Positions 1-64,000 of a DNA stretch of 64,000 bases are shown piece after piece. Position 1 is the stretch's first letter; each line of letters starts with the position of its first letter. This stretch comes from Octopus vulgaris (lineage: Eukaryota). Position numbers: made by a program. The stretch covers positions 80,848,001 to 80,912,000 of the forward strand of contig OX597820.1 in the NCBI GenBank assembly GCA_951406725.2, written 5' to 3'.

Positions 1-3000
1 AGACACACTTGAAAGCTTAGGAGGTGGTCGCGGAGGTTAGATATTTGAAATATCGTTGCCTATAGAAAAGTATATATATATGTAACATATGACAATTTAT
101 GTAAGCAAAACATACGTTGTACTGAATGTGATGTAAACGTAATTTAGTTGACAACGCCAGACGATATATAATATTGCGGCAGTATTTCAATTGAACGTTC
201 ATGTAACTCCATGTATATTACATTTGCAATGTCATCGTAGAAATAAGTGGCTCTCCTCAAATGATCTAAGATAATGCTTTCACTATTTCATCGATGTATA
301 TTTGAGAGAATGCCTTCCAATTTACATTGCTTGATGTTTTTCTCTAGGACATAAATCCGTTGATAGCCTACGTGATAAGCTGAAGGAAGCTGTTGAAGCG
401 AAAGACAAAGGCTATTTACAAAAGATTGTACAAGAAAGCGTGTCTGCCGGAATGCCAGAGCTGGATGACGATATCTTGAAAGCTCGAAGTGCGTTAGACA
501 TACTTGAAGGCGGATCTGGAGGTTAGCACATGCATTTAACTGTCGCTTGTGCGTAAATGGCGCCTTAAATATAAATTATAATATCTCTGACATATAATAT
601 CAATGTGTAACAATTTCATTTTTCAAATTCAATATGGTTGTCATTTTGAAATTGTGTTAGAATTTAAAGTAAAATTTTCATCATGTCATCCTGGTGTCAT
701 CGATTTGGTTTGATAGATGTGAAATCAGCGACTTCACTCAGAGACCGGTTAACAGAATTGATGCAAGCGAAAGATGCTGCGGGATTGGACAAAGCCATAT
801 CGGAATGTGAATCGGCAGAATATCCGGAACTTGGACCTCACTTGCGCAAAGCCCGGGATGTACTTGAAACACTGGGTGGTGGGCGTGGAGGTTAGATCTG
901 GTTTCTATTTTTGATGAGATTTCCAGTGCAAAATGCACAATTATTTATGTCATATTACCTGGAGAATTTCAGATATTTATTCATTGGAAAATGAAACGTA
1001 ATATAGAATCTAGCACGTTGGAAAGCTTTTATAATGATATCAACATTACAATGCATGGAAGAGTGCAGAAGCCTGCGTCTGTGAGGGCAATATAAATAAC
1101 TGCATAATATATGTATTCAGAAAAACACACACAAATACACACACTGAAAAATAGGCATACACACACACACAAACACACATACACGCACACCACATCCACA
1201 TTTTATACTTACAATGTAAGCATATATCACTTCCAACACATTCTATAATCTGCAATATATTCGCTTTCAATACATTCTATATTTACGATGTGAGGACATG
1301 TCAGCAGCACTTAATGGAACAGAGACATCATCGTCCTGTAATTCCCGCTTTGGCTTCATCTTCCCATTAGTATAAAAACCTTTGTCAAAGTGATGGTTTT
1401 GTGGAAAAATATTCACGTGTAACTTTTCGTTGAACACACCAATTCTATCCGTGTATGCATGTGTGAATGTGTTTGTGTGTGAAGTGTGTTTAATCTTATT
1501 TATGTTTGTTTGGATTTGATTGTGAGTTTCCGTGCGTTTCGGTGTGTGTTTCTGCCTGCTTCTATTTGTTTGTGTATGATCCTGTATGTGAGATTATTGG
1601 CAAACGGATGTTTTTGCTTGTGTTTTTACTCTTTGGTATTGTGTGCATGACATCACTAAAGACATATACAGAAATTATTTGCAAGTTTGTTTATTGCGTT
1701 GTTAAAATACTCTGTCAGGGACGAAGACGCCCGAATCACTTCGCCGAAAACTAAAGTCTGCTATGAAGCAGGGAGATAAAGATACACTGGACAAAGTAAT
1801 TCACGAATGCATCGCTGCTGGAATGCCAGAATTAGACGTAGACATAAGCGTCGCTCGAGACGTATTGAAAGACGTTAAAATTTCACCTCCAACAGGTACA
1901 TAGCATTCACTTTGCTTTCAAACGCCTATTGTACTAATAGAATATTATACATTCTTCTATTATGATATCGAAACATCATTTGAAAGCGCCTCTTTTATGA
2001 GGCTATTGAAACTTTTCATTAATAATTATGTTTAGCGATGAATGCTGTGTTTCATACACGAAGTAAGTATAACGTTCATAAAACTTCCTTTGCCAGACAT
2101 GAAAACCGTGGAAAGTTTACGAGATCAGCTAGAAAAAGCAACGAAACTGAAAGACAAAGTAGCTCTCAGGCAAATCATTGAAGACTGTGAAGCCGTTGCA
2201 TATCCTGAATTGAGTTTTGATCTGTCAAAAGCGAGAGACACACTTGAAAGCTTAGGAGGTGGTCGCGGAGGTTAGATATTTGAAATATCGTTGCCTATAG
2301 AAAAGTATATATATATGTAACATATGACAATTTATGTAAGCAAAACATACGTTGTACTGAATGTGATGTAAACGTAATTTAGTTGACAACGCCAGACGAT
2401 ATATAATATTGCGGCAGTATTTCAATTGAACGTTCATGTAACTCCATGTATATTACATTTGCAATGTCATCGTAGAAATAAGTGGCTCTCCTCAAATGAT
2501 CTAAGATAATGCTTTCACTATTTCATCGATGTATATTTGAGAGAATGCCTTCCAATTTACATTGCTTGATGTTTTTCTCTAGGACATAAATCCGTTGATA
2601 GCCTACGTGATAAGCTGAAGGAAGCTGTTGAAGCGAAAGACAAAGGCTATTTACAAAAGATTGTACAAGAAAGCGTGTCTGCCGGAATGCCAGAGCTGGA
2701 TGACGATATCTTGAAAGCTCGAAGTGCGTTAGACATACTTGAAGGCGGATCTGGAGGTTAGCACATGCATTTAACTGTCGCTTGTGCGTAAATGGCGCCT
2801 TAAATATAAATTATAATATCTCTGACATATAATATCAATGTGTAACAATTTCATTTTTCAAATTCAATATGGTTGTCATTTTGAAATTGTGTTAGAATTT
2901 AAAGTAAAATTTTCATCATGTCATCCTGGTGTCATCGATTTGGTTTGATAGATGTGAAATCAGCGACTTCACTCAGAGACCGGTTAACAGAATTGATGCA

Positions 3001-63000: not shown

Positions 63001-64000
63001 AATATTGTGCCACATTCTAAACTTTTACATAAAATATACTAAAATAGGTACTTGTTTCAAATTATTCATACATATATATATATATATATATATATATATA
63101 TATATATATATATATATATATATATATAGAGGGCATTATTATACATACATGCCTCACGCTGATAATTTCTTGTTAAGATTCCTTATTAAGAAGTTATCCT
63201 TAATTGTTAAATTATATATATATATATATATATATATATATATATATATATATATGAGATAAACCTTTTTTCCGATTAGATAAAAAGTCTCCTGCCTATT
63301 TGCGCAACCTATTATCAAGAGGTATCAGACAGAAAAATGCATCATGTTTACAAGAGGCTATTAATGAATGCGAAGCAGCTAAATATCCGGAATTATCCTT
63401 TGATCTGCGCAAAGCCAGAGACGTTTTAGAACAACTCACTGGACATCGTAGAGGTTTGCATCTTCTTGCACTCTTGTTGCGTGCAGACAAAGTGGCTAGA
63501 TATCGACAAATTTATAAATTCTCGCTTTTTTTACGAGTTTAAAATATTCGTTTATTTCATATCAGTAAACATTTTATGATTTCATAAAATATAATCGAAA
63601 CATAGATTAATAAAAACAGACTTTAGATATCAATATTTAAATTACAATAACGCGACAAGTTACAAATGTTCTCTCTTTTTTTGCTCAGAAATGTAAATAA
63701 CAATTGCACGTTATTGATGGCTTCTGTTTCGATGAATGCATATGCATATAATTCTATTTATTTGTATCTTTCTCAGTTCATATATAATATGTGCGCGTGT
63801 GTGTGTTGATGTGTATATACTTATATATTGTTAGTGTGGAATAGAACATCGTATTATAATTGTGTCATGTTTACAATATTTCAAGCACAAATTTCTGTGC
63901 AACTGGAGCATGCTTAGTGAAGTGATTGTGAGAATCCATTAATACCAGCCAAATTTTGATTACTAGGAACACTGACACCTGAGTCTTTACGAGAAAAGTT

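What the first reader, a model, noticed from the sequence alone, without database searches (positions are those of the whole stretch)
1..64000. One exon per module: a hidden giant repeat-protein gene with at least 94 frame-compatible exons
Seen: the 'small ORFs' are really 174/177-nt phase-1/phase-1 exons. There are 92 complete and 2 partial ones, none with a stop or frameshift, and the series runs off both window edges. Each encodes a 58-59 aa unit with three amphipathic segments, a PEL turn and usually a GGGxG linker. Joined, they give about 5,360 aa with no other domain. Inference: this is a beads-on-a-string giant structural or ruler-like protein, organised like the nebulin/titin repeat regions but built from a module I cannot assign to a named family. 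I have an unverified recollection of similar helical repeats in molluscan hillarin/KY-like transglutaminase-domain proteins; treat that only as a lead.
Basis: partly seen in the sequence, partly recalled or inferred. Interest (0 to 1): 0.9.

Follow-up and report, generated by a model that had tools for sequence, protein, structure and literature searches.

The report
Giant repeat gene, one exon per module
The whole window is the inside of one very large animal gene built from at least 94 small exons, each encoding a three-helix unit of no named family, and two thirds of them are a very young 16-fold copy of the same four exons.

Summary
On the + strand there are 92 complete AG..GT-bounded, phase-1/phase-1 exons (72 of 174 nt, 20 of 177 nt; 16,068 nt = 5,356 codons) and two partial ones at the window edges. 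None lies on the - strand.

Bases 348-36097 are 16 tandem copies of a 2,235-bp unit of four exons (A-B-C-D), and 15 of these copies have identical exons. The other 26 exons are old, diverged copies in the same A-B-C-D order. Their synonymous sites are saturated (pS 0.75 against pN 0.33; pN below pS in 99 of 99 pairs). Similarity stops at the exon borders.

Each module is predicted to form three helices with a lower-confidence tail that is usually glycine-rich (pLDDT 83-84). No module matches Pfam, PDB sequences or PDB folds.

The best reading is a coding repeat region of one giant protein with a four-module super-repeat and a coding, multi-exon copy-number array. Splicing, expression, terminal domains, organism and function remain untested. 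The hillarin/KY lead could not be tested.

The parts
1..35 (+). partial exon, 3' end of a D-type module
   Evidence: Reads as the end of the D exon, followed by GT; same letters as 2236-2270
348..2582 (+). array unit 1 (exons A 348-521, B 717-890, C 1719-1895, D 2097-2270)
2583..4817 (+). array unit 2 (A 2583-2756, B 2952-3125, C 3954-4130, D 4332-4505)
4818..7052 (+). array unit 3 (A 4818-4991, B 5187-5360, C 6189-6365, D 6567-6740)
7053..9286 (+). array unit 4 (A 7053-7226, B 7422-7595, C 8423-8599, D 8801-8974)
9287..11521 (+). array unit 5 (A 9287-9460, B 9656-9829, C 10658-10834, D 11036-11209)
11522..13755 (+). array unit 6 (A 11522-11695, B 11890-12063, C 12892-13068, D 13270-13443)
13756..15990 (+). 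array unit 7 (A 13756-13929, B 14125-14298, C 15127-15303, D 15505-15678)
15991..18225 (+). array unit 8 (A 15991-16164, B 16360-16533, C 17362-17538, D 17740-17913)
18226..20462 (+). array unit 9 (A 18226-18399, B 18595-18768, C 19599-19775, D 19977-20150); its B-C intron differs in a CA-rich block
20463..22697 (+). array unit 10 (A 20463-20636, B 20832-21005, C 21834-22010, D 22212-22385)
22698..24932 (+). array unit 11 (A 22698-22871, B 23067-23240, C 24069-24245, D 24447-24620)
24933..27166 (+). array unit 12 (A 24933-25106, B 25302-25475, C 26303-26479, D 26681-26854)
27167..29401 (+). array unit 13 (A 27167-27340, B 27536-27709, C 28538-28714, D 28916-29089)
29402..31633 (+). array unit 14 (A 29402-29575, B 29771-29944, C 30770-30946, D 31148-31321)
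31634..33867 (+). array unit 15 (A 31634-31807, B 32003-32176, C 33004-33180, D 33382-33555)
33868..36097 (+). array unit 16, edge copy (A 33868-34041, B 34237-34410, C 35238-35414, D 35612-35785); second half 1-6% diverged, D exon with 11 nonsynonymous and 0 synonymous differences
36098..36271 (+). A exon of a 17th, incomplete unit (two nonsynonymous base changes in one codon, one residue changed)
36467..36640 (+). B exon of the 17th unit; the intron after it (36641-37223) is 88% identical to array intron 891-1479, then homology ends and no C exon follows
38345..38518 (+). diverged exon, D-like
42049..42222 (+). diverged exon, type A
42540..42713 (+). diverged exon, type B
44484..44660 (+). 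diverged exon, type C (177 nt)
45185..45358 (+). diverged exon, type D
46408..46581 (+). diverged exon, type A
46875..47048 (+). diverged exon, type B
47656..47832 (+). diverged exon, type C (177 nt)
48262..48435 (+). diverged exon, type D
48899..49072 (+). diverged exon, type A
49334..49507 (+). diverged exon, type B
50852..51028 (+). diverged exon, type C (177 nt)
52092..52265 (+). diverged exon, type D; first row of alignment A1 and the module folded
55161..55334 (+). diverged exon, type A
56025..56198 (+). diverged exon, type B
56481..56657 (+). diverged exon, type C (177 nt)
57892..58065 (+). diverged exon, type D
58395..58568 (+). diverged exon, type A; module folded
58899..59072 (+). 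diverged exon, type B
59364..59537 (+). diverged exon, type C (174 nt)
59882..60055 (+). diverged exon, type D
60215..60388 (+). diverged exon, type A
60789..60962 (+). diverged exon, B by position (long branch, not resolved into the B clade); no C exon follows before 62087
62087..62260 (+). diverged exon, type D
62653..62826 (+). diverged exon, type A
63280..63453 (+). diverged exon, type B
63967..64000 (+). partial exon, 5' end of a C-position module (TLTPESLREK), cut by the window end

Best explanation
The window is an internal stretch of one very large protein-coding gene of an animal. The organism was not identified; the compact introns and 29-37% G+C were the only clues.

Shown:
- There are 92 + 2 symmetric phase-1 exons, each encoding one module of 58-59 codons, counting the codon split across the intron.
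- The modules fall into two alternating kinds. X has ...ECVAAGMPELD.DI... and Y has ...ECE.A.YPELG.DL.... These resolve into a four-module super-repeat A-B-C-D of about 233 residues.
- The diverged copies are under purifying selection on the protein, while their introns have decayed.
- One super-repeat has very recently been amplified to 16 tandem copies, exons and introns together. This makes a coding multi-exon copy-number array.

Predicted: each module folds into three helices (about residues 4-17, 20-33 and 36-51), followed by a low-confidence tail that is usually glycine-rich (GGGRG+G after B and D, GG[ST]G+G after A). C modules have a proline-containing tail instead.

Inferred:
- The exons are spliced in series into a long chain of small three-helix units joined by short flexible linkers.
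- The chain acts through its length or valency, as a tether, spacer or multivalent scaffold.
- Whole super-repeats are gained or lost by unequal crossing-over without breaking the frame.
- The long-kept identity of the four positions suggests that the modules are not interchangeable. Either neighbours pack in a fixed order or a periodic partner is read out.
- One mostly conserved Cys per module, balanced charge and RGG-like linkers make an intracellular location somewhat more likely than a secreted one.
For: Exons:
- 92 of 92 modules found by protein similarity alone have AG and GT at the homologous positions and an open frame. There are 0 hits on the - strand.
- All introns carry in-frame stops.
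- Shuffles give 5.9 candidates against 100 observed.

Selection:
- In 99 same-type pairs of 30 modules, mean pN is 0.33 and mean pS is 0.75. pN is below pS in 99 of 99 pairs.
- In a self-BLAST of 36.7-64 kb, the 54 exon-centred matches overhang the exons by a median of 0 nt (5') and 3 nt (3'). The intronic matches listed are low-complexity.
- Among the first 15 array units there are 0 variable columns in exons and 37 in introns. 19 of those lie outside one microsatellite block (P = 8e-4).

Super-repeat:
- The tree of 33 modules groups them by position, not by neighbourhood. Support: C clade 97/94, A clade 93/84, B+D clade 99/95, and B subclade 89/94 holding 7 of 8 B-position modules.
- The X and Y profiles align over 57 columns with probability 99.6%.

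Array: 16 units with periods of 2230-2237 bp and mean pairwise identity 99.5% (99.7% among the first 15).

Fold: two AlphaFold2 models from different module sets each give three helices. pLDDT is 83.3 and 84.3, pTM 0.60 and 0.62, and the tail block scores 63-68. The conserved hydrophobic positions (L7, L11, A14; L23, I27; L38, L42, A45, L49, L52) are spaced i, i+4, i+7.
Against: - No transcript, junction or peptide evidence could be consulted, so serial splicing and expression are inferred.
- The donor sites are unusual: +3 is T in most (GAG|GTTAG).
- The array copy number rests on one assembly.
- In the edge unit the D exon differs from the consensus at 11 nonsynonymous and 0 synonymous sites. 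Constraint on that copy therefore looks relaxed.
- No exon-versus-intron contrast in divergence can be drawn inside the array, because the introns are nearly identical too.
- The D-position modules do not form a resolved clade, and one B-position module (60789) is unplaced.
- Phase 1-1 modules are, from my recollection of Patthy's work, typical of extracellular mosaic proteins. That speaks against the intracellular guess.
- Nothing tested here bears directly on function.
- Multi-module folds were not made, because the joined step was left out.
Confidence: 0.6

Rival explanations
1. The exons form a cassette or mutually exclusive exon bank. Each transcript would take only a subset, giving many isoforms of moderate size rather than one protein of more than 5,000 residues (Dscam-like or titin-PEVK-like usage).
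For: All exons are symmetric (phase 1-1, multiples of 3), so any subset keeps the frame. The donors are weak-looking (GTT at +1 to +3 in most). 60 of 92 exons are followed by a stop one codon into the intron, so any exon could also end a protein if its intron is retained.
Against: The regular A-B-C-D order, kept over long divergence, argues that neighbours are used together. Outside low-complexity DNA there is no conserved intronic sequence in the diverged half that could serve as docking or selector sites. As I recall, mutually exclusive banks often use exon lengths that are not multiples of 3. Identical exons add no isoform diversity.
Confidence: 0.2
2. The young array (348-36097) is wholly or partly an assembly artefact, or a neutral and very recent copy-number expansion. 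The functional gene would then have about 30 modules.
For: Exons and introns are equally near-identical: mean 99.7% among the first 15 units, with some pairs at 100%. Shared variants are interleaved among units, as could arise from haplotype mixing.
Against: The units differ by private substitutions and small indels, and divergence rises towards the array edge, as in real tandem arrays. No exon variant occurs against 37 variable intron columns among the first 15 units. All 66 exons stay open.
Confidence: 0.15
3. It encodes a secreted structural material (a helical fibre, capsule, adhesive or matrix protein). The repeat number would set the bulk properties of the material, as in silks and mucins.
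For: The architecture is highly homogenised and repeat-only. The linkers are glycine-rich. Phase 1-1 exons fit (the link to extracellular modules is recalled). From recall, the spider Flag silk gene also has iterated exon-intron units homogenised together.
Against: 22 of 33 distinct modules have a single Cys and 7 have none, so a paired disulfide pattern is unlikely. The composition is highly charged and balanced: K, E, D and R together are 35%, with mean net charge -0.5. No signal peptide could be looked for, because the N-terminus lies outside the window.
Confidence: 0.12
4. It is the repeat region of a hillarin/KY-like transglutaminase-domain protein.
For: The passages I read describe hillarin as a W180-domain, transglutaminase-like protein that interacts with septins. 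This says nothing about a 58-residue repeat.
Against: 0 of 33 modules and 0 of 10 intronic open stretches match any transglutaminase, LIM or other Pfam family at its cut-off. No PDB sequence match was found.
Confidence: 0.1

Closest known systems
Nebulin (super-repeats of simple helical modules; the number of super-repeats varies between species)
   Same: It is a giant protein made almost only of one small helical module. The modules are grouped in a higher-order super-repeat whose positions keep their identity. Length changes by whole super-repeats. For PMC7754682 I saw the search listing and the start of the abstract. The near-identical triplicated exon block in human NEB is recalled.
   Different: The module here has 58-59 residues and three helices, not about 35 residues with SDxxYK (recalled). 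The super-repeat has four modules, not seven. No Nebulin Pfam match was found (0 of 33). Binding to a filament is not shown.
LPA kringle IV type 2 array (a coding multi-exon copy-number repeat)
   Same: A multi-kilobase unit holding several in-frame exons is repeated many times at near identity inside a gene, so the protein gains whole domains. For PMC6314250 (5.6-kb unit, more than 40 isoforms) I saw the listing and the start of the abstract.
   Different: The unit here is 2,235 bp with four exons and four domains. LPA has two exons for one kringle. The domain is helical and unrelated. Copy-number polymorphism is not shown here.
Spectrin-family rods and bacterial giant three-helix-bundle rods (Ebh of Staphylococcus aureus; recalled)
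   Same: These are long chains of three-helix units. In Ebh two kinds of bundle alternate (recalled), as the X and Y modules do here.
   Different: Spectrin repeats are about 106 residues and joined by continuous helices (recalled). Here the units are half that size, and most are followed by a Gly-rich tail. No Pfam match and no fold match with E <= 0.001 in PDB.
Titin PEVK and Ig exon series
   Same: There is one symmetric exon per module, a long uninterrupted series, and duplicated exon blocks. PMC9222585 appeared in the search listing only; the rest is recalled.
   Different: The fold is different, and no Ig, FN3 or PEVK signature is present.
Hillarin / KY transglutaminase-like proteins
   Same: Nothing was shown here.
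   Different: No transglutaminase-like core, LIM or other named domain lies in the window. The W180 domain is not a model I could test.

Membership tests
Nebulin repeat family | About 35-residue module matching Pfam Nebulin (SDxxYK motif, recalled) | tested here: not met
   0 of 33 distinct modules match it at E <= 1; the module is 57-58 residues within the exon
Nebulin repeat family | Modules arranged in a super-repeat with position-specific identity | tested here: met
   Four-module A-B-C-D order; clades by position: C 97/94, A 93/84, B 89/94; D unresolved. This is a likeness in organisation, not membership
Spectrin repeat | About 106-residue three-helix repeat matching Pfam Spectrin | tested here: not met
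   No such match among 33 modules; no PDB fold match with E <= 0.001
TPR / Sel1 / other named helical repeats | Match to a Pfam repeat model at its cut-off | tested here: not met
   0 of 33 at cut-off. The commonest sub-threshold family is B12-binding_2, in 5 of 33, best E 0.0013. TPR-containing chains appear only at Foldseek E >= 2
Hillarin / KY (transglutaminase-like) | Transglutaminase-like core domain in the same protein | not testable with these tools
   None in the window, but the gene runs off both edges and the flanks are not available
Hillarin / KY (transglutaminase-like) | W180 domain related to the module | not tested
   No W180 sequence or model was within reach; only paper passages naming it were seen
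Coding multi-exon tandem copy-number array (LPA KIV-2 kind) | Unit with several exons, repeated head to tail at near identity, frame kept across units | tested here: met
   16 units with periods of 2230-2237 bp, mean identity 99.5%, four phase-1/1 exons each, all open
Coding multi-exon tandem copy-number array (LPA KIV-2 kind) | Copy number varies between individuals | not testable with these tools
   Only one assembly window is available

The most novel reading that the evidence does not exclude
The module is a domain family not yet described. The protein would be a ruler- or tether-type giant whose four-module period (about 233 residues) matches a periodic cellular partner. Its length would be changing now by gain of whole super-repeats: 16 copies with no amino-acid change in 15 of them. 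That would give a natural invertebrate system for testing how the length of a repeat protein sets the size of a cellular structure.
Probability: 0.15. Interest if true: 0.75.

Novelty: new variant of a known kind. Interest (0 to 1): 0.45.

Why it matters
If the exons are spliced as read, this is a protein of well over 5,000 residues built only from a small three-helix unit. That unit matched nothing in Pfam, in PDB sequences or in PDB folds, the only libraries open to me.

It has a nebulin-like super-repeat, and an LPA-like coding copy-number array is caught in an early state. This would add a new module to the short list of domains from which giant chain-like proteins are built. It would also offer a test case for how length or valency evolves through whole-unit gain.

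For genome annotation it is also a warning. Automatic gene finders and short-read assemblies are likely to break or collapse such a locus.

Tried and rejected
- Pfam on 10 and then on all 33 distinct modules: nothing at cut-off.
- Pfam on 10 open stretches from long introns: nothing. One sub-threshold WBP-1 hit, E 0.038.
- PDB sequence profile search: only de novo designed helical proteins, best E 0.0068, matching the helix-GD-helix stretch.
- Foldseek against PDB with both models: 0 matches with E <= 0.001, out of 89 and 120 with E <= 10. The hits are generic small helical bundles, TPR pieces and ribosomal protein chains.
- ESM Atlas, two modules: best score 0.88 with low recognition, and no usable named hit.
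A single module matched 600 pattern stretches, 0 of them confirmed by tblastn.
- Rfam over the window: 0 matches.
- Tandem Repeats Finder with periods up to 500 does not see the 2,235-bp unit; it reports only (TATC)57.
- An open stretch at 40395-40631 reminded me of a transposase helix-turn-helix. Pfam and PDB gave no support, so I dropped the idea.
- The excess of nonsynonymous change in the edge-unit D exon is not significant against its flanking introns (Fisher p = 0.20).
I tried twice, the second time as its own message advised. Nothing was folded.
- Paper searches for hillarin/W180, kyphoscoliosis peptidase in molluscs, and giant repeat or exon-duplication terms found no description of this module. 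These are word searches and cannot find a sequence.
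Full report
**What is in the sequence.** The window has no N and is AT-rich: G+C is 0.37 in the first 36 kb and falls to 0.29-0.35 after that. I scanned the + strand for stretches bounded by AG and GT, 174 or 177 nt long and open in phase 1/1. After a loose module motif filter this gave 92 exons: 72 of 174 nt and 20 of 177 nt. 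Together they hold 16,068 nt = 5,356 codons, a quarter of the window.

A test that ignores splice sites agrees. An HMM of the module was searched against every six-frame stop-to-stop stretch. It found 92 strong hits (E <= 7e-24), all on the + strand and all on those exons. There was one weak extra hit (38704-38751, E 9.5) and none on the - strand.

The window begins inside a module (1-35) and ends inside one (63967-64000, reading TLTPESLREK). Block shuffles give a mean of 5.9 such frames (max 14 of 30 shuffles) against 100 observed. For the diverged part alone the figures are 2.0 (max 7) against 31.

The exons start in all three genomic frames. Each following intron has an in-frame stop within 1-46 codons. 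Only splicing gives a continuous frame.

Only 33 protein sequences are distinct. Bases 348-36097 are 16 head-to-tail copies of a unit of 2,230-2,237 bp. The unit carries four exons, which I call A, B, C (177 nt) and D. An A and a B exon of a 17th unit follow.

- Mean pairwise identity of the 16 units is 99.5%, and 99.7% among the first 15.
- Among those 15 units no exon column varies, while 37 intron columns do. 19 of the 37 lie outside one CA-rich block (binomial P = 8e-4 for no exon hit).
- The 16th unit is identical to the consensus in its first half and 1-6% diverged in its second half.
- After the last B exon the intron is an 88% identical copy of the array intron for about 590 nt. Homology then ends and no C exon follows.

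Divergence that rises towards the edge is what a real tandem array homogenised by unequal exchange looks like. Whether the assembly has the true copy number cannot be tested here.

**The old part.** From 38.3 kb to the end lie 26 diverged exons in the order D, then ABCD five times, then AB-D, then AB, and the partial C. A tree of the 33 distinct modules groups them by position in this four-module period, not by neighbourhood:

- C clade: support 97/94.
- A clade: 93/84.
- B+D clade: 99/95.
- B subclade: 89/94, holding 7 of the 8 B-position modules.
- The D modules are not resolved as one clade, and module 60789 is unplaced.

A and C form one kind (X...ECVAAGMPELD.DI...). B and D form another (Y...ECE.A.YPELG.DL...). 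The two profiles align over 57 columns with probability 99.6%. The likely history is one module, then an X-Y pair, then an A-B-C-D super-repeat. The super-repeat was then amplified long ago, and one of its copies was amplified very recently.

**Is it coding?** I compared 30 modules within their types: 8 A, 8 B, 6 C and 8 D. The three near-identical edge variants were left out, and only the first 54 codons were used.

- In 99 pairs, mean pN is 0.33 and mean pS is 0.75, so synonymous sites are saturated. pN is below pS in 99 of 99 pairs. Median dN/dS of the pairs with a finite dS is 0.24-0.30 per type.
- A self-BLAST of the diverged part shows 54 exon-centred matches. These overhang the exon by a median of 0 nt on the 5' side and 3 nt on the 3' side (max 5 and 30). 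The intronic matches listed are low-complexity DNA.

Similarity confined to the exons, splice sites kept at homologous positions and no decayed copy are the marks of real exons under protein-level selection. The other test, junction reads, could not be run.

**The module.** L23, P36 and A45 are invariant. L7, R8, L11, A14, E37, L38 and R46 are at 90% or more. The conserved hydrophobic positions are spaced i, i+4, i+7 in three segments.

AlphaFold2 was run on one D module with all 33 rows, and on one A module with the 14 X rows. Both runs give three helices: 4-17, 20-33 and 36-51, and 4-16, 20-33 and 36-53. pLDDT is 83.3 and 84.3, and pTM 0.60 and 0.62. Confidence drops to 63-68 in the tail.

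The tail has at least three Gly in its last seven residues in 65 of 92 exons (20 of 33 distinct). 40 of 92 exons (10 of 33 distinct) end in RG, which with the junction codon often gives GGGRGG. C modules end in Pro-containing, non-Gly tails. Distinct modules have one Cys in 22 cases, none in 7 and two in 4. K, E, D and R together make 35%, and mean net charge is -0.5.

**Known families.**

- No module reaches a Pfam cut-off (0 of 33). The commonest sub-threshold name is B12-binding_2, in 5 of 33 with best E 0.0013.
- The PDB profile search finds only de novo designed helical proteins (best E 0.0068).
- Foldseek finds no PDB chain with E <= 0.001 for either model.
- The ESM Atlas gives nothing usable.
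- A scan of prokaryotic genomes gives nothing.
- Rfam gives nothing.
- Ten open stretches from the long introns have no Pfam family, so no other domain was seen inside the window.

Whether predicted proteins with this module are already on record stays unchecked.

The hillarin/KY lead could not be tested. The passages I read say only that hillarin is a W180-domain, transglutaminase-like protein acting with septins. My four paper searches found no description of the module.

Folds of 2 and 4 modules and searches with the joined protein were therefore not made. How neighbouring modules sit together is open.

**How it most likely works.**

Shown: a long series of symmetric exons under protein-level constraint, a four-module super-repeat, and a young in-frame multi-exon array.

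Predicted: a three-helix unit with a flexible tail.

Inferred:
- The exons are spliced in series into a chain of small helical units joined by short Gly-rich linkers.
- The chain acts through its length or valency as a tether, spacer or multivalent scaffold.
- Because every exon is phase 1/1 and each unit holds whole modules, unequal exchange adds or removes super-repeats without harm. This is how the 16-copy block arose.
- The four positions have kept their identity past synonymous saturation. Modules are therefore probably not interchangeable: they pack in a fixed order or read a periodic partner, as nebulin's super-repeat does.
- The intracellular guess (single Cys, RGG-like linkers) is weak. 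Phase 1-1 exons are, from recall, more typical of extracellular mosaic proteins.

I give the gene-and-architecture reading high confidence and the functional reading low confidence, about 0.6 for the whole statement.

**Rivals.** The rivals are:
- use of the exons as a cassette bank;
- an artefactual or neutral array;
- a secreted material protein;
- the repeat region of a KY/hillarin-like protein.

Each is set out with its evidence in its own section.

**Comparison and novelty.** In organisation the locus works like nebulin (super-repeats) and like the LPA kringle IV-2 array (a multi-exon coding copy-number repeat). For these I saw only the listings and abstract starts of PMC7754682 and PMC6314250. 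In its three-helix units it recalls spectrin-type and Ebh-type rods (recalled). It is not a member of any of these families by the tests I could run.

I rate it a new variant of a known kind: a known type of gene architecture built from an unassigned module. Interest is moderate. The object is real and unusually clean. However, giant uncharacterised repeat genes are not rare in invertebrate genomes, and its novelty against the protein databases could not be checked.

Noticed in passing
donor sites of the 92 exons, e.g. window 522-527, 891-896: Most donors read GAG|GTTAG, with T at +3. As I recall, the metazoan consensus has a purine there. Because the introns are phase 1, this puts TAG in frame right after the junction: 60 of 92 exons meet a stop one codon into the intron, and 16 meet one after two codons. 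Retention of any intron would end the protein cleanly after a whole module.
   Followed up: partly
window 35612-35785 (D exon of the 16th unit): It differs from the array's D exon at 11 sites, all nonsynonymous. One of them changes the nearly invariant R of the AR motif. The C and A exons nearby show 1 synonymous + 1 nonsynonymous and 0 + 2 differences. The divergence (6.3%) is not significantly above that of the flanking introns (3-4%; Fisher p = 0.20).
   Followed up: partly
window 36641-38344 and 60963-62086: At these two places the A-B-C-D order lacks its C exon, and no remnant is detectable at HMM E <= 10. The first is the far edge of the young array, where the intron is 88% identical to the array intron for about 590 nt and then unrelated. 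The second holds a (TATC)57 microsatellite at 61097-61321.
   Followed up: partly
window 1123-1184 and 1461-1565, and the same places in each array unit: The 828-nt B-C intron has a CA-rich arm and a GT-rich arm, forming imperfect inverted repeats (19-23 nt, 74-86% complementary). Most length and sequence variation between units sits here.
   Followed up: no
array units at 2583, 15991, 20463, 24933, 29402, 31634, 33868 against the rest: A few intron variants (alignment columns 595, 749 and 1030) are shared by interleaved subsets of units rather than by neighbours. This could reflect block duplications of several units, gene conversion, or mixing of haplotypes in the assembly.
   Followed up: no
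window 40395-40631 (+), inside the 3,530-nt intron: This is a 79-codon open stretch whose middle reminded me of a transposase helix-turn-helix. Neither Pfam nor PDB sequences support that, so it stays unexplained.
   Followed up: yes
tool behaviour, e.g. window:719-889:+: References translated by the alignment tool show M where the first codon is GTG, TTG or similar, because of the table 11 start rule. The true first residue of that module is V. This affects only the first column of A1-A3.
   Followed up: yes
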